Source of the DNA: Lates japonicus
Taxonomy: Eukaryota
Reading direction: 5' to 3'
DNA: 64,000 nucleotides
Assembly (NCBI GenBank): GCA_033238685.1
Contig: BRZM01000010.1
Span: forward strand, 3,885,405 to 3,949,404
Shown here: positions 2,943 through 34,547 of the stretch, in pieces
Layout of the letters: every line of letters starts with the position of its first letter
Numbering within the stretch: position 1 is the first letter of the stretch
Position numbers and translations under genes: made by a program
Notes under the pieces: model-generated
What the model was told of the DNA's origin: nothing
The model's database searches: none
What the model saw: only the letters and a program-made list of their open reading frames with translations

Positions 2943-2990
2943 ATGGAGGCGTGTATGGTGAAGCCAGAAGTCAAAAAGAAACCAAAGCCG
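2943..2990 (+). CDS. Giant APOL-domain gene, coding exon 1 (ATG; MEACMVKPEVKKKPKP), donor gtgaga
   Basis: ATG 5 nt after acceptor tctacag. 48 nt, ends phase 0 at a gtgaga donor. Chains in frame through all downstream exons to the APOL domain. Confidence 0.6.
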
Positions 2991-3074
2991 GTGAGAATAT
3001 TTAAAGCTAACGCAGAGAAGACTCAACTGACTGTGTACAGTATATAAACAGCTCCTATAAAATAACACGTTTTT

Positions 3075-3101
3075 CTATTCACAGCCTAAACCTCCTCCAA
3101 A
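3075..3101 (+). CDS. Giant APOL-domain gene exon 2 (PKPPPKPAE)
   Basis: acag|cct...gag|gtacag; 27 nt; phase 0-0. Confidence 0.55.
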
Positions 3102-3226
3102 GCCTGCTGAGGTACAGTAATAAACCCAAACCTTTGATTAAAGTTAATAATGTGTTTTTCTATATATGAACCTCAGGATGTTGTTGTGAGGTTACAGACT
3201 TCTGAAATCTGAAATAATCTTCACAG

Positions 3227-3295
3227 GTTAAAAGAAATGACCCAGAGAAACTGGGGAAACCTACTCCTGTGCTGCCTCAAAGACCTACAGACTCT
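3227..3295 (+). CDS. Giant APOL-domain gene exon 3 (VKRNDPEKLGKPTPVLPQRPTDS)
   Basis: cacag|gtt...tct|gtaagt; 69 nt; phase 0-0. Confidence 0.55.
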
Positions 3296-3444
3296 GTAAG
3301 TCCAGCATGAACAACCTTTACCTCTGTCAAGGAGGTTTTCTTTTCACCTGTGTCTGTTTGTTTATTTGTCAGCAGGATTACAAAAAAAAAAAAAAGTACG
3401 CGTTCTTTTAAGTCTGGGTTGTAGCGGTTTGTTTTTCTGTCCAG

Positions 3445-3501
3445 GAGCTGAGTCACACACAATACAGACTGAAAAAATCAGCAGCAACAACAAACAAAGC
3501 G
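3445..3501 (+). CDS. Giant APOL-domain gene exon 4 (ELSHTQYRLKKSAATTNKA)
   Basis: ccag|gag...gcg|gtattt; 57 nt. Confidence 0.5.
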
Positions 3502-3728
3502 GTATTTACTGCATTTTTAAAATGAAATTTTATTAAATGTCTTGGTTTTACAGAGAGACATGAAAAGTCTTAAGTTTGAGCTTGCATGTGAGAGTATATC
3601 AACATCAATATAATTATTTAAAATGTTTTATTTTGATTTTAATTGATACTCTGCATATGTTTACATGTTTTATACATTATTGTCCAAACAAAAGGAGGTG
3701 TATTATCATATTTATCCATCTGTATCAG

Positions 3729-3809
3729 GGCAACGGAAATTTACCACAAAGAGACACAAAAGAGAAGCTGCCTAAAACTCCTGTGGTTCCACCCAGACCC
3801 ACAGAAAAG
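3729..3809 (+). CDS. Giant APOL-domain gene exon 5 (GNGNLPQRDTKEKLPKTPVVPPRPTEK)
   Basis: atcag|ggc...aag|gtgcag; 81 nt; in frame with six-frame ORF 3576..3836. Confidence 0.55.
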
Positions 3810-4087
3810 GTGCAGTACACCCAAATACTCAGTTAAGTGATTATAGCCAGTGATAGAGTCAGGTTTAAATCCAAGTATTCAAGCTGTTGAATATTGTGGG
3901 AACATGTATGTTTGTTTTATGTGGAGAATGACTTTTTAATTGAAATCAAAGTGAGTCTGGAGTTTAGTGTGAGAGCAGTTTACAGTAAAGAATCACCCTG
4001 TGCTACTCGAGGTTTCATGTTTCTTTCCTGTTTCAAATATCTATTGTTATTGTTCCCTTGTGGCCTTTTCGTGTGCGTTTTGTGCAG

Positions 4088-4147
4088 GAACTGAACGCCT
4101 CGAGCAGATCCAGCCACCGCAGGAGGGCGCAGGCCGAGGACACCGAA
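4088..4147 (+). CDS. Giant APOL-domain gene exon 6 (ELNASSRSSHRRRAQAEDTE)
   Basis: tgtgcag|gaa...gaa|gtacgt; 60 nt. Confidence 0.55.
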
Positions 4148-4240
4148 GTACGTAAAAGACACACACAATGAAAATGCCATGTTCCTCCTGACTTGTTTTA
4201 TATAAAATGCAGAGTCAACGTCGTTCCTCTTCCTCCTCAG

Positions 4241-4306
4241 AGCTCCAGAGAAAATGACAAACCAGAGGATGCTGAAGGTCCCAAAGATGAAGCAGACTTC
4301 AAACAG
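4241..4306 (+). CDS. Giant APOL-domain gene exon 7 (SSRENDKPEDAEGPKDEADFKQ)
   Basis: cctcag|agc...cag|gtacca; 66 nt. Confidence 0.55.
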
Positions 4307-4401
4307 GTACCACAGCTGGAAGTACTGGCTTCCACCTCTGACCAGATTTACGAAGAGAATACATAATGTCTTCCTCTTTATTTACACGTGCTTTGTTGTA
4401 G

Positions 4402-4467
4402 AATAATCCATCGGGCCTGGGTGGAATGTTACGGCAGAGCCAAAAAGAGAAAACACCTACGTTCACT
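4402..4467 (+). CDS. Giant APOL-domain gene exon 8 (NNPSGLGGMLRQSQKEKTPTFT; degenerate basic motif)
   Basis: ttgtag|aat...act|gtaagc; 66 nt. Confidence 0.5.
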
Positions 4468-4955
4468 GTAAGCAACACACCTGCAGCTCTCCTCCACTTT
4501 AGCCTAACATGCCAAACTAGCACTTACTGTGCACTTCTTTACCTGATCTCCTTGCACTGAACTGATTTAGAGCTTACTTCACGGTCTCCCACTGCACTGA
4601 AGCGTCTGCCAAACGAGTTAATGTGAATGTCAAAACTGACAGTGCCTCAGCTAAACAGGTTTCTGGAGGCAAACAGGTGTGTGCGGGTGTGTACACATGT
4701 CAAACCTTAGTGTGTATTCAGACATACAATAGGTGTGTGTCTGCATGTTCATGATTCAGTGTTGATGTAATTTGTTCAGTGAATACACAGAGTCTCATAA
4801 TTAAATAGAAGAAAAAAGACACATTAAATAAACACAAAGATAGAAACATATACACAATGTTTTAGACACATGTATAGAGAAGAGCAGAATTAGATTTTTA
4901 CTTTATGCTTTGAAACATCAGTTGTTTAGTCAGTGTTTCCCTGATTTCTTCTCAG

Positions 4956-5033
4956 AGTTATGTGTTTGACGACGGTGACGAACAGGAAAAGCCTGGTGAT
5001 GTCCCAGCCAAACAGGCTCCTGGCAGCAAACCG
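4956..5033 (+). CDS. Giant APOL-domain gene exon 9 (SYVFDDGDEQEKPGDVPAKQAPGSKP)
   Basis: tctcag|agt...ccg|gtgggt; 78 nt. Confidence 0.5.
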
Positions 5034-5112
5034 GTGGGTGTTTCTTTGTATGGTTGCTGTTGTGTGTGCTGACGTTATCAGCCTGTTTTTGACATGTGAC
5101 TGCGGTTGACAG

Positions 5113-5163
5113 GGCGTTCTGAAGGGAATGATGAAAGGTTTGCAATTCAAGTCGTCACCAAAG
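5113..5163 (+). CDS. Giant APOL-domain gene exon 10 (GVLKGMMKGLQFKSSPK; basic-hydrophobic motif)
   Basis: gacag|ggc...aag|gtacga; 51 nt. Confidence 0.5.
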
Positions 5164-5729
5164 GTACGAGGCACCGTCCGGTTTGGTGTTTTCCACTGGT
5201 GGTGGCTGCAGAGTTTCACACTGTCTCCCTGTCCAGTTTAACTTAGACTACACTTGTTGTGGTGATGGTGGTGGTGGTGGTGTCTGTACTGAAACTGCAT
5301 TGTTCTGATTTTAACAGTATTCATATGTATTATCTTTGGTTTAAAAAGACACATTTTGATAAAAGATGCCCAGACTGCCTGGATGGGTCTGCCGTCACTT
5401 CCTGTTATCTCTCTGTTGTCGACAGACTGATAAAGGCATATGTTGCCTATGAAAAAAAAAAGAAAATGTAGAAAAGATTATCTCACTGTCAGTTTGTAAA
5501 ACCTACAACTTTCACAACTTGACGAAGTGGCACAGTGCAGTGTGGTTCACGTGCTGCATCCTTAGGTAATCATGCCTCAAAATCCTGTCTGGTTTTCACA
5601 AAACTGTGTTTTGTTTGGGTTTTTTTTTTTTTTTTGGTTATTTTTTACATCTTGTCGGTTAGAATTTTTTCAATTTAAAGAATTCACATTTATGACTGTT
5701 GTGCTGAAGATTGTTGACTCTTCTCTCAG

Positions 5730-5834
5730 ACCAGCAGAGATCCGAGTCCAGTTCCCAGCACAGAGGAAGGAGTCTCAGATAAGGAACAACCAGCAGAGAA
5801 AAACAAGCAAGAGAAAAATACAGAACCCAAACAG
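5730..5834 (+). CDS. Giant APOL-domain gene exon 11 (TSRDPSPVPSTEEGVSDKEQPAEKNKQEKNTEPKQ)
   Basis: tctctcag|acc...cag|gtaaga; 105 nt. Two frames are open; phase 0 was chosen from the chain. Confidence 0.45.
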
Positions 5835-6120
5835 GTAAGAGATAAGTAACCACATTAAAATGCTAAACTGTGACTGCTCGTGTGAATACGCCAGTTCTGC
5901 TTCTGCTTTTCCAAACAAACAGAATCATTATTGAATCACTGTTTTAGTGTTTAACTGACATAACAACAAAATGGAATTTCATTCTTTTGAAAATCAGGTT
6001 ACATATTCTGTATGCAAATAGAATTGTTCAAAGTTCTCTATTTTTATAAAAGGAAGACTTAAAAGCAGATTGTTTTTTGGGTGGATCAACCTTAGATTTT
6101 TTTCCAACTTGTCTCTTCAG

Positions 6121-6189
6121 GATATAGGAGGTCTGTTCGCTGGGATGTTCCGGAAAACACCCAAAGAGAGATTGTCTCCTCAACTGACG
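6121..6189 (+). CDS. Giant APOL-domain gene exon 12, B-type (DIGGLFAGMFRKTPKERLSPQLT)
   Basis: cttcag|gat...acg|gtaaca; 69 nt. Confidence 0.6.
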
Positions 6190-6294
6190 GTAACATCAAT
6201 AACTCTTTTTTTTTTTTTTCTTTTTAAAAACTGAATTTCCAGTTTTTATCTTTGATCTTACAACCTATGCACTCATTGTTGTGTTCCCTCCCAG

Positions 6295-6360
6295 GTCAGC
6301 AGAGCAGACAGTGATGCTGAAGATGCTGAGGAAGAGGAGAAAACATCTGAACAGTCCCAC
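6295..6360 (+). CDS. Giant APOL-domain gene exon 13, acidic (VSRADSDAEDAEEEEKTSEQSH)
   Basis: cccag|gtc...cac|gtaagt; 66 nt. Confidence 0.6.
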
Positions 6361-6660
6361 GTAAGTCTTAGTGGCATCAGCAAGCAAGTAAACTTGACAT
6401 AAATATACCATTATACAAACAGAATCCACACAGTAAAAGAACTTTAGAGTTTATTTCAGTGTAAGATTAAAGAGTAAAATAGCTGCCAAGAATTTGCTTT
6501 TTGTGTTTGAAAAGCTCAATTTTTTATGTAAAATTAGTATTGGCTTGAAGGATATGCAACAAATATGTAAAAAGATCCACATATTTAATTCTGTGTTTAA
6601 TTGTTATTTTCAAAGAGTTTGAACTGTACTGTACTTCAAAAACACATTTCTTTTCTACAG

Positions 6661-6729
6661 GAAAAAGGAGGCTTCTTCTCTGGTGTCCTTAAAAAATCCA
6701 GCAAACCAGCAGATGAAACACCTGCACAG
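6661..6729 (+). CDS. Giant APOL-domain gene exon 14, B-type (EKGGFFSGVLKKSSKPADETPAQ)
   Basis: ctacag|gaa...cag|gtgagc; 69 nt. Confidence 0.65.
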
Positions 6730-6754
6730 GTGAGCTGGCAAAAATGATTTTCTG

Positions 6755-6895
6755 CAGCCAGAAGGCAGTTAGCTTACCTCAGCATAGAGACTGAAAACAA
6801 GGAGAAACAGCTAACCTGGCTATAGCTTTGGATAGAGCAGGGGATTTTGATATATTTTACTGTCATCTGGTAAAGCTTTTGTCATTTGTTTTCCA
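6755..6895. repeat. Dispersed fish interspersed repeat, copy A (in an intron of the giant gene)
   Basis: gcagttagcttacctcagcatagagactgaaaacaaggagaaacagctaacctggctatagctttggatagagcagg is about 75% identical to copy B at 46390-46600. Confidence 0.5.
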
Positions 6896-6925
6896 CTTTT
6901 CCAACATATTACCTTGATACTTCAG

Positions 6926-6991
6926 GAGAATCTGAGTGCCTGCAGCAAGCTGTCGGCCAGCAGTGACAGTCTGTCTGAGAACAGCAAAAAG
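6926..6991 (+). CDS. Giant APOL-domain gene exon 15, A-type (ENLSACSKLSASSDSLSENSKK)
   Basis: cttcag|gag...aag|gtgagc; 66 nt. Confidence 0.65.
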
Positions 6992-7175
6992 GTGAGCAGC
7001 TTTCAGTCACAGTATCTGCTATGAGAGCAGCAGAGATAACCTTATCTTTAATCACAGTGTACACACAGACTTAAAGTAGATTTTCCTGCAACAAAAGTAC
7101 GTCATTGACCTGTCTTTGATCCGAATAAAAATCCCATAACTGACCATGTGTGCACCATTTTTCTGTCTGTGTTAG

Positions 7176-7247
7176 GAAAAAGGAGGAATATTCAGTGGGA
7201 TGTTCAGGAAGTCTCCAAAACCAACAGATGCTCCTCAGACTGACGAG
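7176..7247 (+). CDS. Giant APOL-domain gene exon 16, B-type (EKGGIFSGMFRKSPKPTDAPQTDE)
   Basis: gttag|gaa...gag|gtgacg; 72 nt. Confidence 0.65.
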
Positions 7248-7410
7248 GTGACGTAGATGGAAAACAGCTGTAACATGCCAGTCAATGTGCTATGACACAA
7301 GATGGCAGATCTATTGTGCAACTCCTCAAACGAAGCCAACAAGGTCATATCATTAGTTTAATCCTGCAGCCTGATAATCACATTGAACTCGTTCACATTT
7401 TGTGTTTCAG

Positions 7411-7473
7411 GACCAACAGTCTCTGCATGATGATCTGTCAGGCAGTAATGATAATCTGTCTGAAAATTCAAAG
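7411..7473 (+). CDS. Giant APOL-domain gene exon 17, A-type (DQQSLHDDLSGSNDNLSENSK)
   Basis: tgtttcag|gac...aag|gtgagc; 63 nt. Confidence 0.65.
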
Positions 7474-7586
7474 GTGAGCTCAGACGTATTCAGCTATGAA
7501 ATGACAGGATTATGATGCAGTGTTACCATTATTGCCGTTACGTAACAGCAGCTGATGGTGTGAATTAATTGTTCTGACATCACCAG

Positions 7587-7649
7587 GAAAAGGGAGGATT
7601 TTTCGGCGTGATTCTCAGAAAATCTCCAAAGATTCCTGAAGAGGGGCAG
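7587..7649 (+). CDS. Giant APOL-domain gene exon 18, B-type (EKGGFFGVILRKSPKIPEEGQ)
   Basis: caccag|gaa...cag|gtaatg; 63 nt. Confidence 0.65.
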
Positions 7650-8145
7650 GTAATGTGTGAGCAAGTGAAATTTTAACATAGCTAAGATTCTCCTCCACAG
7701 ATTTTAGAAACACTAATAGTCACCAGAAATGTGTGATAGTGGTAGTCTGCTCAAACTTCCTTGTTAACTGGAATAAACTATGGTTCAACATATTAAAGAG
7801 CAGATAAACGCATTTAAGTGGAGTTCAGAGTGTGAATATGTTGGAGAGTAAATTAAAGGATTAGAATGAACAAAGTCAAGATTACAATGACCAAGTGATA
7901 AATGGTGAAACTAAAAGTCAATAGGTTTTGCTGCCAGAAAAGCCAGTTTGTCTGTTAAAGTGTCTTTTTGAACAATAAACTGAAACCCTGTCTGGTCACC
8001 TAATGTTTGCTTTTCTGTTTAAAAAGGTGAATTCTGAATCCTAAAAGAAACTTGGACAGATGAGGCATTTTGACACTTTGCTTTTCTGACATTTTACCAA
8101 GAGCTTAAAATAGGACACATCAATATTGGTCACCTCAGACACTTT

Positions 8146-8170
8146 TATTATTATTATTATTATTATTATT
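8146..8170. repeat. (TTA)n microsatellite
   Basis: direct. Confidence 0.9.
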
Positions 8171-8480
8171 AGTTGCTGTTACACACAGGACTTTTAATCT
8201 CAGATGCTCTTTGGTCCAAAATGTATAAAATTCTGTTAATTTGTTGACAAAATTAGTAATTTTTATGATAGTATTGCATCTTGACACTTTTATTATCTTT
8301 GTATCATGTTTGTTCGTATTATGTTCCTAAATTACCAATAAGCTGCTTGTAAATGTAGGTTCTGCAGTGATGAGGTTTTTGCCTCTACCTGTTTGTTTCT
8401 GTAGGTGGTTTCATGTCTGCATGTAAGCGGCATGAGTGTTCATGTTCAGACAGGTCGAGTCACATTTTTGTTGTGTTCAG

Positions 8481-8540
8481 GTCTCAGAGTCGTTGCACGG
8501 TGAATTCTCTGCCAGCACTGACTGCCTAATGGAGAACAAG
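8481..8540 (+). CDS. Giant APOL-domain gene exon 19, A-type (VSESLHGEFSASTDCLMENK)
   Basis: tgttcag|gtc...aag|gtttgt; 60 nt. Confidence 0.6.
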
Positions 8541-8720
8541 GTTTGTTTTCATGACAGATTTGACAGTCCCCCCCCCCGCACACCCACTGAAACTGCATGA
8601 GTCACCATGATGAGCATGGAAACATGAGTTAATGTGCCTGTAGCTCTGTAGGAGGAAGATAAGGTTCCTAAGACCTGTTTTAATTTAGGAAATTTAATAT
8701 GTTTTCTCTTCTCCCTGTAG

Positions 8721-8777
8721 GAGAAAGGTGGTTTGTTCAGTGGACTCCTCAGAAAGACGCCCAAAACAACTGGAGAG
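8721..8777 (+). CDS. Giant APOL-domain gene exon 20, B-type (EKGGLFSGLLRKTPKTTGE)
   Basis: ccctgtag|gag...gag|gtacag; 57 nt. Confidence 0.65.
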
Positions 8778-9992
8778 GTACAGCTTCTCAAACAGTGTAG
8801 CGTAGTTTCCATGGAGACACTCTGAGCAGACCCATAAACACTGTCTAATCTTTAAAATGAAAAAAACTGTTGCTTTATTGTGCTCAAGACACTGGGTGTG
8901 CTCCATGAACCCAACTGGCAAAATGCTCTGTGTTTGTGCTGGATGGGTGTGGTTTTCCCTCCACATGCCATGAGACCCAGCAGACTTTAAAGGTGCTATA
9001 TGTATGTTTTTGCTCTCGCTGTATAACCAACATTATCATTAACAGCTGTTTACTTACCAGTCTAAAGGAAATGTTACAAGTTCAGCATCAAACTTCATTC
9101 CTTTACTTGCTAAGAGCTGTGTCCATCAGTGGAAAGTAACAGCAATATTAACTCTTGTTTTGCCTCAATTTCTATCACTTATTTTAGCATGCTAACCAGT
9201 TAGCTCCTGCCCATCTTGTCTCATAATACCACTTGTGAGTCACTGTAGCGTCCAGTCTGCCTTTAGTCCAACATGACGAGATGAAGTTGCGCTATCATGT
9301 CATCTATCACATGATCATAGATATCATATATGCAAAACACTACAGTCATCTTTTTTTTCCAAATACTGTTTACAAAATATCATTGTCCTTAGTGGTGCTG
9401 GATTACCAACCAGGCAAAGCAGGCAACTGCCCAGGGGCCCCAGAAGCTCCGAGCTGAGCATACATGGTCTTTTGTTGTGGAGATCATGGCAGCACATGAG
9501 GCAGTTCAAGTGCCTGTTGTTTATACTTGTTCCAAAAGTTCAAAATAGATTTTTAAAAATGAAAAACCACATGTTACCAACAGGATTGTCCCGACTAATG
9601 AAATCCTTTTACACACAGTTTGTCATGACTGAATCCTAATTAAAATGATCCTGTTGTGTCTGACAAGCTATAAAAAGATGCAATCAAAGATTACCGCAGC
9701 ATCTTTATTACCTGCTGCTGTTTTATTATCAGCTCATAGAGACTCAGAATCATACCTACCATGTTACGTGCCAACTGGTTTCCCTGTCCTTCCCATGAGT
9801 ATGACTAAATGGAGCACAGCCAGTGTGACACATGTTCCTCATATGTCCACCAATGTTTTCAAATGCTGCACCCAGGAAGAGGAGAAAATAAATCATGACA
9901 GACAAATATTTAAGCACATTTCCTTTTCATTTATCCCCTTCTACCATTTCCTGTTGGATTGTTTTTCCTGACAGTTTTGATTGTTGTTTCAG

Positions 9993-10064
9993 GAGAATCT
10001 GTCAGCACAGAAAAAAGATCTTTCAGCCAGTAATGACAGTCTGTCTGAGGCCGCCAACACCAAG
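9993..10064 (+). CDS. Giant APOL-domain gene exon 21, A-type (ENLSAQKKDLSASNDSLSEAANTK)
   Basis: tgtttcag|gag...aag|gtcagt; 72 nt; frame confirmed against ORF 9981..10247. Confidence 0.65.
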
Positions 10065-10425
10065 GTCAGTTTGGTCATAAGAATGCTCTCTAGAGTCTCA
10101 TTTTTAAAAGATCAACATCAATCATTATCAAATCAAATACATGAATATTCCCCGGGAGCTAACAATGAAACAATGCAGCTCAAAGAGTCAATCCTTTGGG
10201 GAATCATGTTTATTGCTTATAAAAGTTGGACTTATGACTGGAGTTGAAATGCGTAGTCACAGAAATTTATTCTGCAACTACTATTAAAGTAATAGTTTAA
10301 GTTCTATTTCAAGCAAAAAGGCCAAAAATTTCTCTGTTATCTGTCTCTGTTTCTGTTGTATTTTGTTTGGAAGAAGTAATGTGTATATATAGAATTTTGA
10401 AAAACCTGTGTACCTGACATTTCAG

Positions 10426-10497
10426 GAGAAGGGAGGTGCGTTCAGTGGAATGTTCAAGAAGTCGTCCAAACTTGCAGATGGTCCTCCCACTGAGGAG
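10426..10497 (+). CDS. Giant APOL-domain gene exon 22, B-type (EKGGAFSGMFKKSSKLADGPPTEE)
   Basis: tttcag|gag...gag|gtaaga; 72 nt. Confidence 0.65.
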
Positions 10498-10564
10498 GTA
10501 AGAAGTGTCTCCTCTGTTTTCTGGTTCTGTCCAGTCACTCAGTAGTGTTGTTGAAAGCTGCATG

Positions 10565-10700
10565 TCGGCAAAACATCAGGGTAGACTTGTGACTAGAAGG
10601 TTGCCGGTTTGAATCCCAGGGCCAACATAAAAAACATCATGTAAATAAATGCAAGGAACCCTGAGGAAAGTTCCAGGCTAGAATCCAACCAGAGACAGTG
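10565..10700. mobile_element. tRNA-derived SINE-like fragment (ggtagacttgtgactagaaggttgccggtttgaatcccagggcc)
   Basis: B-box-like GGTT..G(A/T)TCC motif in the context typical of fish tRNA-derived SINEs; lies within an intron. Confidence 0.35.
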
Positions 10701-11005
10701 TAGTTATGTGGTATGCATCTCAACTGCTTGTCTGGTGAATGCCTGAAAAACAGGATTTGCTATGTGAATAAATATCTCTGCTCTTTTCCCTATGAAATGT
10801 TGTTTTATAAAAGCTGTTAGATGTTAGTGGATGTGGCTCATATTTAAAACTTGGCCAAACTTTTATTATAAAACACTGTGGGAAATGCTGGGAGTAAATA
10901 CAGTTCATATCCTGAGTATTTAACAGTGAGATGCCCTGAAGCTGAGGTGAATGTAAAAAGACCTCTAATGTGAAACAGGTTCTAATTAACTTTTTCTTTT
11001 TTCAG

Positions 11006-11071
11006 GAAAAACAGATGCAAGACGATGAGCGGCCAGGCAGCAGTGAAGGTCTGTCTGAAAACAACACCAAG
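11006..11071 (+). CDS. Giant APOL-domain gene exon 23, A-type (EKQMQDDERPGSSEGLSENNTK)
   Basis: ttttcag|gaa...aag|gtgaga; 66 nt. Confidence 0.65.
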
Positions 11072-11148
11072 GTGAGATTTTTTAATAGCATCATTTGAAA
11101 ACAATCCTGTTTAACTTCTATTTCTTTAAGAGACAGTGCTCATGTTTC

Positions 11149-11174
11149 GTGTGTGTCTGTGTGTGTGTGTGTGT
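11149..11174. repeat. (TG)13 directly abutting the 3' splice site of exon 24 of the giant gene
   Basis: gtgtgtgtgtgtgtgtgtgtgtgtttcag|gaaaaagg. Confidence 0.9.
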
Positions 11175-11179
11175 TTCAG

Positions 11180-11248
11180 GAAAAAGGACTATTTAGTGGA
11201 ATATTCAAAAAGTCGCACAAACCGGCAGAAGCTGCTCAACCTGAGGAG
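11180..11248 (+). CDS. Giant APOL-domain gene exon 24, B-type (EKGLFSGIFKKSHKPAEAAQPEE); acceptor directly preceded by (TG)13
   Basis: gtgtgtgtgtttcag|gaa...gag|gtaact; 69 nt. Confidence 0.65.
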
Positions 11249-11826
11249 GTAACTGTATGAATCATTTTTCAAAATACTGACCTTTATCCAGCTCTTAACC
11301 TGCTTTGCTTTATTGTGTTTCCATGTTTCCATTTCCAAACATTTATGATACCTTTTTATATTGTAAAGCCTCATGACCTCCATTAAGAGCACTGTGTTTT
11401 TTCACCAGAGGCTGTTTGAAATTTGACTCATTTTCAATGTAATTTTGTGGGAAATTCAGAATAACAATGTACAAGTGATCAGTTGTTGGTGCAGATTAAC
11501 TCTGTCTTTTAAAAGCATTCTTAACATTGTACATTTTTTTTTAACTATTTCCCTATTTTCCTCACAAAACATTGCACTGAATGATTGCCTGTTACTGTGT
11601 TTATACTGATGCAGATCTGTACACAGATATAGATTTGGTGTAGATTCAAGTTTCAAAACATTTTCTACAATTAAAGAAACAAATATCTGTTGAAACTATG
11701 ACACATTACAATTATTTTTATTAAGTTTTATTAGGAAAAAAATGTCTGAATTTATCTGCAATCTTTTAAAACTTTTCAGAGGATAAACTGTTAATGCAGC
11801 TTCACTTACAACTTTGTCTTTTACAG

Positions 11827-11886
11827 AATGAGTCTTCTGAGAATGAGCTCTCAGCCAGTAATGAAAATTTGGCAGAGAACAAACAG
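11827..11886 (+). CDS. Giant APOL-domain gene exon 25, A-type (NESSENELSASNENLAENKQ)
   Basis: ttacag|aat...cag|gtcagt; 60 nt. Confidence 0.6.
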
Positions 11887-12004
11887 GTCAGTGAGTTTAA
11901 ATCAGTGCTGTTTAGTGGCTTTTCAGTGAACCAGTTTCATTTATAAATATTTCAGCACTGGTCCCATCTCAGCCCTAAAACCTTTTCTTGTGTCTTTCCA
12001 TCAG

Positions 12005-12109
12005 GAGAAAGGTGCGGGGCTGTTCAGTGGACTCCTCAAAAAGACTCCGAAAGCGTCAGGAGAAGAAGGTGGTGAATCTGCCTGTGGTTCAAACTCTTTC
12101 ATTTCTCAG
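12005..12109 (+). CDS. Giant APOL-domain gene exon 26, extended B-type (EKGAGLFSGLLKKTPKASGEEGGESACGSNSFISQ); donor choice uncertain
   Basis: catcag|gag... A nearer gtggtg at 12069 would break the frame (64 nt). The strong donor cag|gtgggc at 12110 gives 105 nt with an open frame. The exon could also be skipped without frame loss. Confidence 0.4.
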
Positions 12110-12986
12110 GTGGGCCGACACTGACGACCTGTCTGGAAATTTCTTCACAAGGTGGCGGTGTAATGCAACAAAAACTTTGTGATAAATGTCTCGGAGGAAC
12201 GTTCACTAACACCACATTATTTTTTAGGAGAAATGTTTCCAACCTTATGTTTAAAACAGCAGAAAGCCAGCAGAGAACAGCTGAAAAGTACTGTGATTGA
12301 ACAAGGCGTTATTGTTCTGCCGGAGAATGAATACTGATACTAACATTTGTTCTTTTCTGGTTTGAATTCAGGGCAGGAAAACGGTGAAAATCAGTTATCT
12401 GGCAGCTAGAATCAGATGACACCGTTGTGAAGATTGCCTATCTACAAAGGCACTTTTTCTTCTCTTTGTTTTTTTGGTCAATGGCTACTTTTGTCCTTCA
12501 TTAACATAGACGACAGATCAGTCAAATCAGATTTTTATGAGATAGTACTGTGGGTTTTACATTGTAAAGTTCTTATACGTGCATTGTACTCAGGTTTGTG
12601 ATAATTCTTTGACAAGACACAAGTACTTTCCAAAGTTAAAATTTGATATAAATAAAATTTAAAAAACAATGTTAAACCAAAGTATGCAAAAGGCAGGTTT
12701 AAGATAGTAATATACATCTTGGAATAAGCCTTCACTGAAGTAATATCTAATATATTCTTGACGGTTGTGGCAGGGACTCTGTGTTGTTGGGTTAAATGGC
12801 ATTTTTGTTGAAGGGCTGTGTTAAATTTATATTCCTTAACATTAAGCTTCAGCATTTAGATTTCACTTTTTGGTCATTTCTCTCTTTGCTGTTATTTTCT
12901 GTCTCTTTTTGGTTGTTTTGAGTCTTTTCTCGGGTCCCCTGACCTCCTCATTAATCCATCCATGCATCTGTGTTTTTTCTTGTCAG

Positions 12987-13055
12987 GAGAAAGGACTGTT
13001 CAGTGGCCTTAAGAAGAAAACACCCAAAGCGTCTGGAGATGATGCAGCTGCAGAG
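12987..13055 (+). CDS. Giant APOL-domain gene exon 27, B-type (EKGLFSGLKKKTPKASGDDAAAE)
   Basis: tgtcag|gag...gag|gtgagt; 69 nt; frame anchored by ORF 12870..13082. Confidence 0.65.
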
Positions 13056-13155
13056 GTGAGTGCTCGGCTAGTTTTATGCTAACACTGTTAGCATCTTAGT
13101 CTATGGTAACTGTTGCACATATGAACTTAATGTACATTCTTTATTCTTTTTTCAG

Positions 13156-13212
13156 GACAAAGACGAGCTGTTTGCAAGTGACGAGAGTCTGTCTGAGAAC
13201 ACTAACACCAAG
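13156..13212 (+). CDS. Giant APOL-domain gene exon 28, A-type (DKDELFASDESLSENTNTK)
   Basis: tttcag|gac...aag|gtactg; 57 nt. Confidence 0.65.
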
Positions 13213-13472
13213 GTACTGAGTTGAGAAATGTCAGCACTATAAACTGTGTGCAACACAACTACTCCTGTGCATTTGAAAACTGAACAGTATTTCAAATATG
13301 TTAAGTTTGTGGTGAATTTTTTTTCTCATTCATCCTTTACAAACTGTACAAATATAAAATGTATCATTTCTAATTAGTACATTGCATTTATGGGGATTCA
13401 AAAATATATATTATGTCTCTGGAAACCAAACGTTGTCTCTCCTTCATTCAGTTCCTGCATTTCTGTTTTTAG

Positions 13473-13538
13473 GAGAAAAGTATTTTCAGCGGGATGTTTA
13501 AGAAGACTCATAAACCAGCAGAGGGGACGACAGATGAG
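13473..13538 (+). CDS. Giant APOL-domain gene exon 29, B-type (EKSIFSGMFKKTHKPAEGTTDE)
   Basis: ttttag|gag...gag|gtgcag; 66 nt. Confidence 0.65.
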
Positions 13539-13639
13539 GTGCAGTAATAACATTTACATAAAGTTGACATTGCATTACACACATTTGACTATTTTGTATT
13601 CGTCTTCATTTTTTATGTTTTATTTTCATGTGTTTTCAG

Positions 13640-13711
13640 GAATCAAACGCAGGCAATTCTAAGAAATTATCTGCCAGTTGTGAGAATCTGTTGGAGGCAA
13701 ACGCATCAAAG
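13640..13711 (+). CDS. Giant APOL-domain gene exon 30, A-type (ESNAGNSKKLSASCENLLEANASK)
   Basis: ttttcag|gaa...aag|gtacaa; 72 nt. Confidence 0.65.
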
Positions 13712-13808
13712 GTACAAATGTTGTCTGATGATCACAACTTTAGTCTGTTTCTTTCTCTTCTGTTATTGATTGTTGATTATTAATGTGTAAATGTTTCATC
13801 TGTTTCAG

Positions 13809-13880
13809 GAGAAGACAGGAGGATTTGCAGGGATCTTCAAAAAGTCTCCCAAACCAGCTCCACGCTCTGTTGTTACTAAG
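13809..13880 (+). CDS. Giant APOL-domain gene exon 31, B-type (EKTGGFAGIFKKSPKPAPRSVVTK)
   Basis: tgtttcag|gag...aag|gtgact; 72 nt. Confidence 0.65.
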
Positions 13881-14039
13881 GTGACTAAATAAACTGATTT
13901 GGGTTTTTCGATGTGTAAAGTTATCAGCTGTTTAGATGTCTGTGAAACCTCTTATTTACATTTTTAAGAGAATCATATTATGGCAAATTCTCCATAAATA
14001 ACCCTCAACAAACCTGACTGCTGACAAACTGTTCTCCAG

Positions 14040-14102
14040 GATCCACTCATTAACTCAGAGGAACTGTCCGCCAGCTGGGACAGTCTCGCAGACGCTGCTG
14101 AG
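14040..14102 (+). CDS. Giant APOL-domain gene exon 32, A-type (DPLINSEELSASWDSLADAAE)
   Basis: tctccag|gat...gag|gtgagc; 63 nt. Confidence 0.6.
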
Positions 14103-14608
14103 GTGAGCGCAAGTCTGTGGATACACTTAACAACATGTTAATACTGTACGTTTATACTGTAGGCAACAGTACCAATAAATGTTAATCAGAATATTTTGTT
14201 GCCTACAAAACATTTGAGTAACACAATGGTAAGTATTTAAACAAAAGGCTACATTTGACTACATGTCTGAGGAAAGGGAATCTCAGAAGACTAGAAGTAA
14301 CTGTATGGAGCCTTCCTTTCTCCAGATTGTCTGCCAGCGAACATTTAGAATAGATTTTCAGCATCAGCATTTGCTGTTTTATACAGAGGCCCATTTCTGT
14401 CACTGTGATGGGAAGTTGTCATAATAAGAAACTCTCTCAAGATAGTGATTCAGTAAGTCACTTACAGGATCTTTGTTTTCATCACATTGGCAGAAATGCA
14501 CTTCCAGTTTTTAGATTTTTAACCCTCACTTTACTTTGTACTTTGTGGCCTGGTTATGAGAAGGTTCCCAGTCAGTGATAAATAACTTTTGATTGCATTT
14601 TTTTAAAG

Positions 14609-14680
14609 GAGGATCTGTCAGCACACGGTGAATTGTCTGCCAGTACTGAAAACCTTTGTGAAGCTACAAGCACCGCAAAG
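14609..14680 (+). CDS. Giant APOL-domain gene exon 33, A-type (EDLSAHGELSASTENLCEATSTAK)
   Basis: tttaaag|gag...aag|gtgaga; 72 nt. Confidence 0.6.
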
Positions 14681-14771
14681 GTGAGACTTGCAGAGTGTGT
14701 TAACCTGTTTGATTGACTGAATGAACACCTTTTTGTGACTTATAAATACATCATGTTTTATATTTTTACAG

Positions 14772-14831
14772 GAGAAAAAAGTAGGGTTTGGTGGGATGTT
14801 CAGGAGGACGCCCAAAACTGTGGAACACCAG
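14772..14831 (+). CDS. Giant APOL-domain gene exon 34, B-type (EKKVGFGGMFRRTPKTVEHQ)
   Basis: tttacag|gag...cag|gtgcga; 60 nt. Confidence 0.65.
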
Positions 14832-15168
14832 GTGCGATACTGTCAACACTGGTTTGAGTTGTACAATCAGTATCAGGAAAAGTGTTTTTGTTTCAGATTA
14901 ATTTCCAGTCTGTGCATTTGAGATGACATCAGTGAATAAATTCTCTGTATATAGACAGTATTTTTGAATTTGAATAGCAGGTTTGTGATAATGTGAGATG
15001 TGTTCTTGGATGCATCCATTTTCAAAACAGAAACTATGAAAAAAAAAACACATCAATTCATAACAGTGATAATAAAATTAATGCAAATGGTTCAATGTGA
15101 GCTAGTTAGATGATCACATGTACGTTTCTGTGCAGCTACTAAACAAATATTTTCTCTCTCTGTTGCAG

Positions 15169-15240
15169 GAAAGCGAGGACATGGAGGCACCAGAGGGAGG
15201 TGGGCTGAGACGCAGGAGGACAATCAAGAAGCAAAGACGA
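15169..15240 (+). CDS. Giant APOL-domain gene exon 35 (ESEDMEAPEGGGLRRRRTIKKQRR; basic, NLS-like)
   Basis: gttgcag|gaa...cga|gtgagt; 72 nt. Confidence 0.6.
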
Positions 15241-15472
15241 GTGAGTTGTTGGTCACAGTGGAAAAAAAACATCCAGAGACCTGACAGAAAGTAGCAGCAG
15301 CAAGAATAACATATATTTCAACAGCTGTGTTTCATAACATGAATTTCTACTTCCAATATCAGTGGTCAAGATGAGGGTTTAGCTTTTATCAACAAAAGTT
15401 AGACACATGTTTTCTCTTGTTTCTCCAGAGTTCTTCTCTGACTAATATAAACTTCCTGTTCCTGTTTCTCAG

Positions 15473-15535
15473 GTTGTGTCATTCCGAGTGAAGAAAACTC
15501 TTCCCAAACTACCCAAACTTAATTTATCCTCACAG
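15473..15535 (+). CDS. Giant APOL-domain gene exon 36 (VVSFRVKKTLPKLPKLNLSSQ)
   Basis: tttctcag|gtt...cag|gtgtgt; 63 nt. Confidence 0.6.
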
Positions 15536-15856
15536 GTGTGTACTGATTTCCTGTAGCTGTCCCTCAGTCATAACTCACTGTTTTGCACCCTGCTCCTGTT
15601 CTTTGCATTAGAGATCTGAAATGTAAACTTACAGATATACTGTAGATATAAATATGCTTTTTGTAATTTTTGATTGATTGAAAAGCCTGTGAAAAGTTTT
15701 AAGTTCTTAAAAGTTGACCTGAGTCATTTATTTCAATTTTAATTTATATTCACTTTACTTGTTTACCATAAATGCTTTTATTATTAATGTGCATGAAGTT
15801 CTCAGTTGAGCTTGTTACTCACTTAATGACATGAGTCGTTTTTTTCTCCTGCACAG

Positions 15857-15919
15857 ACTTCTGATAAGATGCCTGTCATAGAGGAGACTGTGGAGCTGCA
15901 GGAGCTGAACCCAGCACAG
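15857..15919 (+). CDS. Giant APOL-domain gene exon 37 (TSDKMPVIEETVELQELNPAQ)
   Basis: gcacag|act...cag|gttagc; 63 nt. Confidence 0.6.
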
Positions 15920-16551
15920 GTTAGCATTAGGATATTATAAAGTAGACACCCAGAAAAAAACATTTTTCTGGGACTCACAAATGTTGAGCCAAGCCCATCT
16001 ATTCAATATCATATCCCTTATAAACATACAGCATGACATTTCATGGATTGTTTATCTAGTTGGTTTTGCAGCTGTGAAATGAAAAATGAATGTTAGGGTT
16101 CAGTTGACAAAATAAAATCTGTTACATGAACGAATTAAGTAACTCTAAATAGAACTGGAACAAGTGAGAGACTCAGAAACACTTGAAGAAAGTGAGGACA
16201 AAGAATAATAAAATGACAGTAAGTGCATGCATTTAGATATAAATATATATTTGCATGCACATGAAATCATAATTGCAGCATATCTTTACCTGATATGTGT
16301 GATAATGATTACAGTGTCATTTAATTGTGCATTTTGTTTGTGAAACACAGTGTTAGTTGTCACTCTATGTCTGCAGCCTGTGAAGATCAGCTAGCATTCA
16401 GCGAGTTAGCTGTTTAGCTGTTAGCTGTTTACCATAAAGTCATGTTAGTGTGTGTTAAAGTGGGAGTATGTCATCTGTACAGAACCTTACAGATGTTACA
16501 GCTGAACTTTATTGTGTTAAAGGTTGTGTTATTATTGTGTCTGTTTTCCAG

Positions 16552-16734: not shown

Positions 16735-16774
16735 GAAACTGATGAACTGATGGAGTGGTGGAACTCTGTAAAAG
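16735..16774 (+). CDS. Giant APOL-domain gene exon 39 (ETDELMEWWNSVK, ends phase 1)
   Basis: ttttcag|gaa...aaag|gttagt; 40 nt. Confidence 0.6.
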
Positions 16775-16893
16775 GTTAGTGTGATATTGATGCACATCCA
16801 CCTGTTTGATGTAATACAAAAGACATAAAAGACATTAAAAACAAAACGCTATTATTATTATTTAGAAGTATTATTTCTGCTGCTGGCTTCCAG

Positions 16894-16945
16894 GTTGGAC
16901 TGAGTGGAACGAAACATCCAATTTCCAGGAGGAGGATGAGGAAAC
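16894..16945 (+). CDS. Giant APOL-domain gene exon 40 (GWTEWNETSNFQEEDEET, phase 1 to 2)
   Basis: ttccag|gttgg...gaaac|gtaagc; 52 nt. Restores the frame exactly into the APOL-domain exon. Confidence 0.6.

Positions 16946-34088: not shown

Positions 34089-34547
<459 letters not shown>

What the first reader, a model, noticed from the sequence alone, without database searches (positions are those of the whole stretch)
6121..14831. About 12 tandem copies of a two-exon cassette; every exon from 1 to 38 is phase 0-0 symmetric
A-type exons (57-72 nt) encode acidic Ser-rich xxLSASxDSLSENxK. B-type exons (57-72 nt) encode EKGG[LIF]FSG[MLI]F[KR]K[ST]PKP plus an acidic tail. A/B pairs recur at 6926/7176, 7411/7587, 8481/8721, 9993/10426, 11006/11180, 11827/12005, 13156/13473, 13640/13809 and 14609/14772, and elsewhere in the gene. 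All 38 upstream exons have lengths divisible by 3. Any subset can therefore be skipped or duplicated without frame loss. This is the hallmark of expansion by intragenic exon duplication and permits extensive alternative splicing. Introns carry microsatellites and repeats that could have mediated unequal crossing over.
Basis: seen in the sequence. Interest (0 to 1): 0.75.

Follow-up and report, generated by a model that had tools for sequence, protein, structure and literature searches.

The report
Repeated mini-exon array in fish apold1a
The repeats are real: a fish gene of the apolipoprotein-L family (apold1a) has a long, floppy front end built from about a dozen old copies of a two-mini-exon unit, a textbook case of growth by exon duplication that has not been described for this gene.

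Summary
On the + strand, 6121-14831 holds 12 B-type mini-exons (EKGGxFSGMFKKSPKP...) and 10 A-type mini-exons (..ELSASxDSLSENxxK). All have AG/GT borders, and all are 57-72 nt apart from one 105-nt exon. All 38 N-terminal coding exons (2943-16626) are multiples of 3 in phase 0.

The gene is a 42-exon, about 1593-aa teleost apold1a. It has a disordered N-terminal region, an ApoL domain (Pfam PF05461) and a K/E/R-rich tail.

In this genome the copies are old. Exon DNA identity is about 55%, and the introns are unrelated. Each exon matches its positional orthologue in Solea, and third codon positions diverge twice as fast as the first two. One intron holds decayed relic exons.

Other teleosts have gained or lost units. 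Some gains are recent and include the introns. Predicted isoforms in other species skip whole mini-exons in frame.

The cassette was found in only 88 of 1.84 billion representative proteins. All 29 that could be named are teleost. All 32 hits of 700 aa or more that extend far enough carry an ApoL domain.

No role for intron microsatellites is supported. The proposed function is inference only: repeated Phe/Lys membrane-inserting motifs alternating with acidic, phosphorylatable spacers.

It is a new member of a known kind, of modest interest.

The parts
2943..5834 (+). Coding exons 1-11 of apold1a (N-terminal, non-A/B): 2943-2990, 3085-3111, 3227-3295, 3445-3501, 3729-3809, 4088-4147, 4241-4306, 4402-4467, 4956-5033, 5113-5163, 5730-5834. 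All are phase 0-0. Exons 8 and 10 are degenerate B-like. Exons 3+4 and 5+6 look like a second duplicated pair.
   Evidence: AG/GT borders and lengths. Collinear match to Polymixia, Poeciliopsis, Solea and Scomber proteins.
6121..6189 (+). B exon (B0), DIGGLFAGMFRKTPKERLSPQLT, 69 nt
   Evidence: HMM B 41.2 bits; AG/GT
6295..6360 (+). Acidic A-like exon, VSRADSDAEDAEEEEKTSEQSH, 66 nt. It lacks the LSAS motif.
   Evidence: orthologous to Solea exon VNKEDSDSDDAEAEEKTSQ
6661..6729 (+). B exon (B1), EKGGFFSGVLKKSSKPADETPAQ
   Evidence: HMM 42.3 bits
6926..6991 (+). A exon (A1), ENLSACSKLSASSDSLSENSKK
   Evidence: HMM 28.7 bits
7176..7247 (+). B exon (B2), EKGGIFSGMFRKSPKPTDAPQTDE
   Evidence: HMM 52.6 bits
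7411..7473 (+). A exon (A2), DQQSLHDDLSGSNDNLSENSK
   Evidence: HMM 35.3 bits
7587..7649 (+). B exon (B3), EKGGFFGVILRKSPKIPEEGQ
   Evidence: HMM 40.7 bits
8481..8540 (+). A exon (A3), VSESLHGEFSASTDCLMENK
   Evidence: HMM 35.8 bits
8721..8777 (+). B exon (B4), EKGGLFSGLLRKTPKTTGE
   Evidence: HMM 42.6 bits
9993..10064 (+). A exon (A4), ENLSAQKKDLSASNDSLSEAANTK
   Evidence: HMM 30.4 bits
10426..10497 (+). B exon (B5), EKGGAFSGMFKKSSKLADGPPTEE
   Evidence: HMM 41.2 bits
11006..11071 (+). A exon (A5), EKQMQDDERPGSSEGLSENNTK
   Evidence: HMM 35.6 bits
11180..11248 (+). B exon (B6), EKGLFSGIFKKSHKPAEAAQPEE
   Evidence: HMM 42.8 bits
11827..11886 (+). A exon (A6), NESSENELSASNENLAENKQ
   Evidence: HMM 26.0 bits
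12005..12109 (+). B exon (B7), EKGAGLFSGLLKKTPKASGEEGG followed by an atypical 12-residue extension. It is 105 nt if the donor at 12109 is used. The 3' boundary is uncertain.
   Evidence: HMM 34.1 bits over 12005-12073. The GT sites at 12069 and 12072 would break the frame; 12109 is the only in-frame GT donor before a stop.
12114..12406 (+). Decayed relic exons inside intron 26: A relic 12114-12152 (out of frame), B relic 12229-12281 (frameshift), A relic 12380-12406 (stop codon). A possible B' relic lies at 12789-12806.
   Evidence: tblastn with the Scomber exons that the window lacks gives four best hits, all on the + strand and in the same order as in Scomber. blastn of window 12119-12407 against Polymixia L002 19001-19325 (an A-B-A block) gives 60% identity over 330 nt, E=4e-7. 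The generic HMMs score these relics only at noise level.
12987..13055 (+). B exon (B8), EKGLFSGLKKKTPKASGDDAAAE
   Evidence: HMM 34.1 bits
13156..13212 (+). A exon (A8), DKDELFASDESLSENTNTK
   Evidence: HMM 29.1 bits
13473..13538 (+). B exon (B9), EKSIFSGMFKKTHKPAEGTTDE
   Evidence: HMM 43.8 bits
13640..13711 (+). A exon (A9), ESNAGNSKKLSASCENLLEANASK
   Evidence: HMM 25.7 bits
13809..13880 (+). B exon (B10), EKTGGFAGIFKKSPKPAPRSVVTK
   Evidence: HMM 42.1 bits
14040..14102 (+). A exon (A10), DPLINSEELSASWDSLADAAE
   Evidence: HMM 32.6 bits
14609..14680 (+). A exon (A11), EDLSAHGELSASTENLCEATSTAK
   Evidence: HMM 37.5 bits
14772..14831 (+). B exon (B11), EKKVGFGGMFRRTPKTVEHQ
   Evidence: HMM 39.6 bits
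15169..16626 (+). Coding exons 35-38 (15169-15240, 15473-15535, 15857-15919, 16552-16626). These are the last phase 0-0 exons.
   Evidence: orthologous to Solea exons
16735..16945 (+). Exons 39 (16735-16774, 40 nt) and 40 (16894-16945, 52 nt), the conserved linker ETDELMEWWNSVKGWTEWNE.... These are the first asymmetric exons (phases 0>1>2).
   Evidence: tblastn with P0016
17283..17697 (+). Exon 41, first part of the ApoL domain including a hydrophobic Gly/Ala-rich hairpin
   Evidence: Pfam PF05461, E=1.4e-23, 84.3 bits against a cut-off of 25.9
18379..20112 (+). Exon 42, second part of the ApoL domain plus a K/E/R-rich low-complexity tail of about 450 aa and the stop codon
   Evidence: Pfam PF05461, E=3.7e-9. 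ORF. Purine skew. The tail ending ...LEDGLYI matches the Solea ending ...MEDGLYI.

Best explanation
This is the N-terminal half of a teleost apold1a gene (apolipoprotein L domain containing 1a; zebrafish name si:rp71-1g18.13). The gene has 42 coding exons and encodes about 1593 aa.

The region flagged is an array of mini-exons that grew by tandem duplication of a unit made of one A exon and one B exon. The A exon is acidic and Ser-rich, with consensus [ED]LS[AG]Sx[DE][SN]LS[ED]N. The B exon has consensus EKGG[ILMV]F[SG]G[MIL]FKK[ST]PKP. Every intron in this part of the gene lies between codons, so duplicating, losing or skipping any unit keeps the reading frame.

In this genome the duplications are old. 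The copies have diverged, each is conserved as a positional orthologue in other percomorphs under purifying selection, and a few copies have died and survive as relics in an intron. In other teleost lineages the same array keeps gaining and losing units.

The following function is inferred and not shown. The array encodes an intrinsically disordered cytosolic arm attached to the membrane-embedded ApoL domain. Each B core (two Phe, aliphatic residues, Lys-Lys, no acidic residue) would act as a short membrane-inserting and polybasic motif. The conserved [ST]-P-K next to it, and the Ser cluster of the acidic A segment, would be phosphorylation sites that tune binding. Mini-exon skipping would set the number of motifs, and so the avidity and the length of the arm.
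For: Shown:
- Exon table and phases.
- Motif specificity against the rest of the window and against shuffles.
- ApoL domain.
- Orthologues named apold1a or si:rp71-1g18.13.
- The full-length Solea orthologue aligns exon by exon, and its annotated gene has the same AG/GT phase-0 mini-exons.
- 36 of 38 window exons best-match their positional orthologue in Solea. Codon-position divergence is 0.164, 0.143 and 0.287.
- Paralogous exons are about 55% identical at DNA level, and similarity ends at the exon borders.
- Recent intron-containing duplicates exist in Polymixia and Anguilla. Near-identical cassettes occur in Albula, Scomber and Neoarius proteins.
- Relic exons lie in intron 26.
- RefSeq isoforms differ by whole mini-exons in Osmerus, Solea, Oncorhynchus and Sander.
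- The cassette profile hits only 88 of 1.84e9 representatives. All 29 named hits are teleosts. 32 of the 35 hits of 700 aa or more carry ApoL, and the other three appear to be models that stop before it.

Support for the inferred function:
- The logo from 236 cassettes shows F6, G8, F10, K11, K12, K15 and L32, S33, S35, D37, L39, E41 as the constrained positions.
- AlphaFold2 of one cassette with a 76-sequence alignment gives no secondary structure, pLDDT 64 and pTM 0.13.
- A published rule states that F-centred motifs in disordered regions insert into membranes when flanked by F, aliphatic and basic residues, and are suppressed by acidic or polar ones (PMC13516693).
Against: - No transcript data for this species were available, so exon use and skipping here are untested. 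The isoforms cited are computational RefSeq models from other fish.
- The 3' end of exon 26 is uncertain, and that exon may be dying.
- The functional model rests on sequence pattern only. The Gly and Ser inside the B core are mildly unfavourable under the published rule. No AroMIP score could be computed. AlphaFold2 gives no helix.
- The motif could equally be a protein-binding short linear motif.
- Absence outside teleosts is based on the 29 hits that could be named, out of 88.
Confidence: 0.8

Rival explanations
1. The A/B segments are not functional exons. They would be open-frame remnants of a minisatellite or transposon-derived repeat lying in the introns or upstream region of an ordinary short ApoL gene.
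For: Some database models of this gene family are short (about 380-650 aa) and contain few or no cassettes. At least three copies in this window are demonstrably dead.
Against: - All 22 segments have AG/GT borders in one frame and one strand.
- Similarity among copies stops at the exon borders.
- Each copy is conserved with its positional orthologue in Solea, with third-codon-position excess divergence.
- Annotated full-length proteins of 1100-1700 aa in many teleosts include them.
- The dead copies look different: they carry stops and frameshifts, and their HMM scores are at noise level.
Confidence: 0.03
2. The array is real, but the B motif is a short linear motif that recruits a protein partner (for example a cytoskeletal, trafficking or kinase-docking partner) and is not a membrane-inserting element. 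Multivalency would then serve scaffolding.
For: - The conserved positions extend beyond the hydrophobic core to an invariant-like G8 and a K-K-[ST]-P-K string. That pattern is typical of peptide-recognition motifs and proline-directed kinase sites.
- The region is disordered.
Against: - No known domain or motif family matches it (Pfam gave nothing).
- The cassette occurs only next to a membrane-embedded ApoL domain, in three paralogue groups. This fits a membrane-proximal role at least as well.
Confidence: 0.3
3. The alternating basic/hydrophobic and acidic blocks act collectively as a blocky polyampholyte. Its role would be self-association or condensate formation, or it would be an entropic spacer. 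Individual motifs would matter little.
For: - Net charge alternates exon by exon: B exons 0 to +5, A exons 0 to -7.
- 32% of residues are charged and 14% are Ser.
- There is no predicted fold.
- Copy number is free to vary between lineages.
Against: - Specific residues (F6, G8, F10, S35, L39) are conserved far more strongly than a composition-only role requires.
- Individual copies keep position-specific sequence over long times.
Confidence: 0.15

Closest known systems
Tropoelastin (ELN) gene architecture
   Same: Two exon types alternate along the gene (hydrophobic and cross-linking in elastin; B and A here). Each short domain has its own small exon. All introns in the array share one phase, so exons behave as in-frame cassettes that are duplicated, lost and alternatively spliced between lineages. 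The elastin side is established knowledge and was not tested here.
   Different: The sequences are unrelated. Elastin is secreted and cross-linked. Here the array is the presumed cytosolic arm of an ApoL-domain membrane protein. The introns here are phase 0.
Titin PEVK, nebulin and collagen 54-bp exon arrays
   Same: Tandem duplication of short symmetric exons encoding disordered or repetitive protein. Copy number differs between species, and splicing chooses how many units are included. The comparison rests on established knowledge.
   Different: The unit here is a two-exon pair of about 45 aa with a distinct motif. The array is small (about 11 units) and mostly ancient in this genome.
APOLD1 (VERGE) and the ApoL family (Pfam PF05461)
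   Same: The C-terminal half carries a bona fide ApoL domain. Database names for the orthologues are apold1a, apold1b and 'apolipoprotein L'.
   Different: Human APOLD1 is a 279-aa protein without any such N-terminal array (own knowledge). The literature traces APOLD1 only to amniotes and does not mention fish repeats (PMC8557400). Papers on zebrafish apol1 do not mention them either (PMC4854397).
MARCKS effector domain and aromatic-centred membrane-insertion motifs of disordered regions (AroMIP rules, PMC13516693)
   Same: The B core combines Phe, aliphatic and Lys residues without acidic residues, next to phosphorylatable Ser/Thr. This resembles basic-aromatic membrane-binding segments whose binding is switched by phosphorylation (the MARCKS comparison is from own knowledge).
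   Different: Each B motif is shorter and less basic (about +3) than the MARCKS effector domain. It is Gly-rich and is repeated about 12 times with acidic spacers. Membrane binding is untested.

Membership tests
ApoL family (Pfam PF05461) | Significant match to the ApoL profile above the curated cut-off | tested here: met
   Exon 41 product: E=1.4e-23, 84.3 bits. Exon 42 product: E=3.7e-9, 36.9 bits. Cut-off 25.9 bits.
Teleost apold1a orthologue group | Closest full-length relatives are the proteins that the databases name apold1a or si:rp71-1g18.13, collinear over the whole length | tested here: met
   ApoL part is 85-94% identical to apold1a-named proteins, against about 70% for apold1b and about 45% for the 'apolipoprotein L1'-named group. 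The N-terminal part is collinear with Solea, Scomber and Osmerus.
Orthology to mammalian APOLD1 | Reciprocal best match and/or conserved synteny with human APOLD1 | not tested
   This relies on the names given by the sources only. No mammalian sequence was compared here.
Tandem exon-duplication array | Exons of the array are homologous to one another | tested here: met
   DNA alignments give 54-57% mean identity (up to 72% for A exons and 81% for B exons). Self-blastn hits pair exons only. HMM hits.
Tandem exon-duplication array | All flanking introns have the same phase, so units are frame-neutral | tested here: met
   38 of 38 exons are phase 0-0 in the model. The same holds in the annotated Solea gene. 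The exon 26 donor is uncertain.
Tandem exon-duplication array | Duplicates that include the intervening intron (direct trace of genomic duplication) | tested here: not met
   Not met in this window: the introns are unrelated. Met in other species: Polymixia 18853-19373 against 20953-21478 at 97.5%, and Anguilla two-exon units at 74-82%.
Tandem exon-duplication array | Copy number differs between lineages | tested here: met
   B/A exon counts: window 12/10, Polymixia about 16/13, Anguilla about 11/12, Poeciliopsis about 6/5, Solea 14/11. Relic exons in the window.
Cassette-exon alternative splicing | Transcripts that include or skip individual units | not testable with these tools
   No RNA data for this species. 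Indirect evidence: RefSeq-predicted isoforms in Osmerus, Solea, Oncorhynchus and Sander differ by whole mini-exons.
Aromatic-centred or polybasic membrane-binding motif of disordered regions | F/W centre flanked by aromatic, aliphatic and basic residues, without acidic residues, in a disordered region | tested here: met
   Consensus G-[ILMV]-F-[SG]-G-[MIL]-F-K-K-[ST]-P-K. No predicted structure. Rule taken from PMC13516693. No quantitative score was computed.
Aromatic-centred or polybasic membrane-binding motif of disordered regions | Demonstrated binding to or insertion into lipid bilayers | not testable with these tools
   Needs liposome or cell-localisation experiments.

The most novel reading that the evidence does not exclude
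The A+B cassette is an undescribed, teleost-restricted protein module found only on ApoL-domain membrane proteins, in three paralogue groups. It would work as a splice-tunable, phospho-switchable multivalent membrane tether. The number of Phe/Lys motifs would be set by exon birth and death over evolution and by exon skipping in cells, and would control where and how strongly the ApoL domain engages membranes. That would give fish APOLD1-like proteins a regulatory arm that mammalian APOLD1 lacks.
Probability: 0.3. Interest if true: 0.5.

Novelty: new member of a known kind. Interest (0 to 1): 0.3.

Why it matters
The array is a clean, datable example of how a disordered protein arm is built, kept and trimmed by duplication and death of frame-neutral mini-exons. 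Living copies, recent copies in sister lineages and dead relics can all be seen.

It also shows that fish APOLD1-type and 'apol1'-type proteins are five to six times longer than the mammalian proteins used to interpret them. This matters for zebrafish models of APOL1 and APOLD1 biology, such as morpholino or knock-out design and isoform choice. It also gives a concrete, testable motif for how ApoL-domain proteins might be held at membranes.

It does not open a new kind of mechanism.

Tried and rejected
- Pfam on the repeat region and on exons 1-11 found no family.
- Literature searches for apold1a, apold1b and the zebrafish clone names found nothing. Papers on APOLD1 evolution and on zebrafish apol1 do not mention repeats.
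- The search for homologous proteins with the 76-cassette alignment returned only 6 short fragments, so it could not be used to look for non-teleost carriers.
- The look-up of encoding contigs found no record for P0143 or P0144. The longest Solea product, P0218, did work.
- The generic A and B HMMs do not detect relic exons in the long introns (noise-level scores). The relics in intron 26 only appear when compared with the specific orthologous exons or DNA. No relics were shown in the other long introns.
- AlphaFold2 of one cassette gave no fold, so no fold search was run.
- Candidate exon 14387-14452, which has good splice signals, was rejected. It has no counterpart in Poeciliopsis, Solea or Scomber, where A10 and A11 are adjacent.
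- Reading the exon 26 tail ESACGSNSFISQ as a fused A exon was rejected as unproven. The true A relic lies just downstream in another frame.
- BCAS1 lead: NCBI once named guppy paralogues 'breast carcinoma-amplified sequence 1 homolog', and from memory BCAS1 carries similar FF-K motifs. This was not tested. In the exhaustive cassette search, every hit of 700 aa or more either carries an ApoL domain or appears to be an ApoL-gene model that stops before the domain.
- Intron repeats as duplication mediators are not supported.

Full report
**What the window is**

Base composition, intron-like spacing and splice signals show eukaryotic genomic DNA. Translating the + strand between 2.9 and 20.1 kb gives a chain of short open segments, each bounded by AG and GT. 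The last two large coding segments (17283-17697 and 18379-20112) match the Pfam ApoL family PF05461. Their E-values are 1.4e-23 and 3.7e-9, both above the curated cut-off.

A homology search with that part returns hundreds of teleost proteins that the sources name 'apolipoprotein L domain containing 1a', 'apold1a' or 'si:rp71-1g18.13'. Identity is 85-94%. A second group named apold1b lies at about 70% identity.

The gene model I assembled has 42 coding exons and 1593 residues. It runs from the ATG at 2943 to the stop at 20112.

**Checking the observation**

I built profile HMMs from the 10 A and 12 B exon peptides and scanned the six-frame translation of the whole window.

- The 22 exons score 26-53 bits, and all lie on the + strand between 6121 and 14834.
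- The best score anywhere else in the 64 kb is 9.9 bits.
- Twenty shuffles of the 9-kb region never exceed 7.6 bits.

All 38 exons from 2943 to 16626 have lengths divisible by 3 and are read in phase 0. The next three exons have phases 0>1>2>0.

This is not circular. The concatenated translation aligns over residues 1-842, without any frameshift, to the full-length Solea senegalensis protein. When I mapped the annotated Solea protein back on its own genomic locus, it showed the same chain of AG/GT mini-exons of 33-96 nt.

Two corrections are needed.

- Exon 26 (start 12005) has lost the usual donor. The only in-frame GT donor is at 12109 (105 nt), so its 3' end is uncertain.
- There are 12 B but only 10 canonical A exons, plus one acidic A-like exon at 6295-6360. 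A10 and A11 are adjacent, and this adjacency is conserved in Poeciliopsis, Solea and Scomber.

From general knowledge, only about a quarter of vertebrate internal exons are 0-0. A run of 38 is therefore far beyond chance, even counting only the 15 exons that are not A or B. This estimate comes from background knowledge and was not computed here.

**How old the copies are**

Within the window, A exons average 54% and B exons 57% DNA identity to one another. A sensitive self-blastn pairs exons only. The similarity stops within about 20 nt of the exon borders, and the introns are unrelated.

Each window exon finds its best match in Solea at the corresponding position of the array. 36 of 38 are collinear. 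The two exceptions involve a recent Solea duplicate and the B7/B8 pair. Divergence between the orthologous exons is 16.4%, 14.3% and 28.7% at codon positions 1, 2 and 3, which indicates purifying selection on the encoded peptide.

So in this lineage the array was laid down long ago. Each copy has since been kept as an individual unit.

**Birth and death**

Other teleosts differ in copy number. The HMM and splice-site scan finds these B/A exon counts:

| Species | B exons | A exons |
|---|---|---|
| This window | 12 | 10 |
| Polymixia lowei | about 16 | about 13 |
| Anguilla rostrata | about 11 | about 12 |
| Poeciliopsis prolifica | about 6 | about 5 |
| Solea senegalensis | 14 | 11 |

Direct traces of genomic duplication exist elsewhere.

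- In Polymixia a five-exon block is repeated at 94-98% identity, introns included (18853-19373 against 20953-21478, and onward).
- In Anguilla several two-exon units with their short intron are 74-82% identical.
- Albula, Scomber and the catfish Neoarius have runs of near-identical cassettes in their proteins.

Conversely, the window has lost units. Scomber has four exons between B7 and B8 that the window model lacks. tblastn with those four peptides against intron 26 gives best hits on the + strand in the same order. The hits are an A relic at 12114-12152 (out of frame), a B relic at 12229-12281 (frameshift), an A relic at 12380-12406 (ending in a stop) and a weak B' trace at 12789-12806.

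Independently, blastn aligns window 12119-12407 to the Polymixia A-B-A block 19001-19325 at 60% identity over 330 nt, E=4e-7. The generic HMMs see these relics only at noise level, as expected for dead exons.

The microsatellites in the introns are few and ordinary: (TTA)9, (GT)13, (TG)14 and poly-T. Apart from a (GT)n run, they are not shared between introns. Nothing here supports them as drivers of unequal crossing-over.

**Alternative splicing**

No transcript data for the source species could be accessed, so this stays untested here. Predicted RefSeq isoforms in other fish do differ by whole mini-exons.

- Osmerus eperlanus apold1a X1 and X3 differ by exactly one A+B unit (45 aa). X7 lacks a 185-aa block of four units.
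- Solea X3 lacks the equivalents of exons 9+10.
- Oncorhynchus mykiss X2 lacks one 16-aa A exon.
- Sander lucioperca apold1b isoforms differ by in-frame blocks of 24, 21 and 11 aa.

These are computational models, and repeats can mislead aligners. They still fit the frame-neutral design.

**Distribution**

I searched a 44-position profile of the B+A cassette against 1.84 billion representative proteins. It found 88 proteins with E<=0.001. The full-length ones are 1100-1700 aa with 10-16 matched units. All 29 for which a name could be retrieved are teleosts, from eels and bonefish to percomorphs.

Of the 35 hits of 700 aa or more, 32 carry an ApoL domain. The other three (P0145, P0154, P0174) appear to be models that stop before it.

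By identity of the ApoL part to the window, these cassette-bearing hits fall into two classes. One is the apold1a type at about 79-94%. The other is named 'apolipoprotein L1' and starts MDRY..LDLECE, at about 45%.

The apold1b group, at about 70% identity, did not appear among these cassette hits. Its isoforms carry a related but distinct repeat (NPGMLKGVMQKVNPFK.. alternating with Ser-rich segments).

The cassette therefore predates the split of at least two ApoL paralogue groups. Whether it exists outside teleosts could not be settled. The remaining hits could not be named, and the last name-giving search returned almost nothing.

No Pfam family covers the repeat. No paper in the searchable library mentions it.

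**What it probably does (inference)**

A logo from 236 distinct cassettes in 152 proteins shows where constraint lies. In the B part the consensus is E-K-G-G-[ILMV]-F-[SG]-G-[MIL]-F-K-K-[ST]-P-K-P. In the A part it is [ED]-L-S-[AG]-S-x-[DE]-[SN]-L-S-[ED]-N. The stretch of about 15 residues between them is variable.

AlphaFold2 on one cassette with a 76-sequence alignment predicts no secondary structure (pLDDT 64, pTM 0.13). The composition is 14% Ser and 32% charged residues, and net charge alternates exon by exon. Together these fit an intrinsically disordered region.

The ApoL part contains a long Gly/Ala-rich hydrophobic hairpin. ApoL domains are membrane-associated (established knowledge).

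A recent study of disordered regions found that Phe-centred 9-mers insert into bilayers when flanked by further Phe, aliphatic and basic residues. Acidic or polar neighbours suppress insertion (PMC13516693). The B core fits this pattern: two Phe, two aliphatic residues, Lys-Lys, a further Lys, and no acidic residue.

My preferred model is therefore a multivalent, weak membrane-binding arm.

- Each B core would be a small insertion and polybasic motif.
- The conserved [ST]-P-K beside it would be a proline-directed kinase site.
- The acidic Ser cluster of A would be a target for acidophilic kinases.
- Together these would give an electrostatic switch of the MARCKS type (the comparison is from general knowledge).
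- Exon number would set avidity and reach.

I put this at roughly 0.35-0.4. The main rivals are a protein-binding short linear motif (about 0.3) and a collective polyampholyte or spacer role (about 0.15). None can be tested with sequence tools.

**Comparison with what is known, and verdict**

As gene architecture, this is the same kind of thing as tropoelastin, with its alternating exon types, uniform intron phase and cassette behaviour. It also resembles the titin PEVK, nebulin and collagen exon arrays. Those are resemblances in mechanism and do not indicate homology.

As a gene, it is a member of the ApoL family and of the teleost apold1a group. Orthology to mammalian APOLD1 rests on database names only. 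From my own knowledge, human APOLD1 is 279 aa and has no such arm.

The finding is real and well read by the first stage. The gene is already present, machine-annotated, in public databases. The mechanism of origin is textbook. What is new is the description of the cassette, its restriction to teleost ApoL-domain proteins, and the visible birth-and-death dynamics. I rate it a new member of a known kind, interest 0.3.

Noticed in passing
window 12114-12406 (and possibly 12789-12806): Three or four decayed cassette exons (frameshifted or stop-containing) lie in intron 26. They are collinear with live exons of Scomber and Polymixia and show that units of the array die as well as arise.
   Followed up: yes
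window 3227-3501 and 3729-4147: Exons 3+4 (..KPTPVLPQRPTDS | ELSHTQYR..) and exons 5+6 (..KTPVVPPRPTEK | ELNASSRS..) look like a second, older duplicated two-exon pair upstream of the A/B array. Exons 8 (NNPSGLGGMLRQSQKEK..) and 10 (GVLKGMMKGLQFKSSPK) look like degenerate B exons.
   Followed up: partly
window 18379-20112: The last exon continues past the ApoL domain into a Lys/Glu/Arg-rich low-complexity tail of about 450 aa ending ..LEDGLYI. This causes the strong purine skew at 18-20 kb (GC skew 0.33, AT skew 0.375). The tail is conserved in Solea, and some Betta isoforms lack it.
   Followed up: partly
window 2938-2943: The first coding exon is itself preceded by an acceptor-like site (..ctacag|GCAGG ATG). 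At least one non-coding 5' exon probably lies upstream. One Solea model adds upstream coding exons.
   Followed up: no
window 34086-34538 (- strand), also 32565-32867 (- strand): An open frame with an RNA-recognition motif (Pfam RRM_1, E=1.5e-13) resembles hnRNP C/RALY. Further along the - strand is a very acidic segment (..DSDEEDEEEEGDLLEEEE..). This is probably a neighbouring gene on the opposite strand.
   Followed up: partly
loci L002 (1-6621) and L003 (1-5993): In Polymixia and Anguilla another ApoL-domain gene (980 and 802 aa models) lies immediately upstream of apold1a on the same strand, so ApoL paralogues sit in tandem there. No ApoL match was found in the window outside the gene.
   Followed up: partly
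proteins P0126, P0128, P0129, P0059 (apold1b) and P0004, P0165 ('apolipoprotein L1' group): A second repeated motif type, xNPGMLKGVMQKVNPFK / ..KLNPF[KR]S.., alternates with Ser-rich acidic segments in the paralogues. It is also alternatively included in predicted isoforms. It may be a diverged relative of the B motif.
   Followed up: no
locus L001 1-6331: Upstream of the Poeciliopsis gene lies a tandem repeat with units of about 0.8-2.7 kb at 93-97% identity. It is unrelated to the cassette.
   Followed up: no
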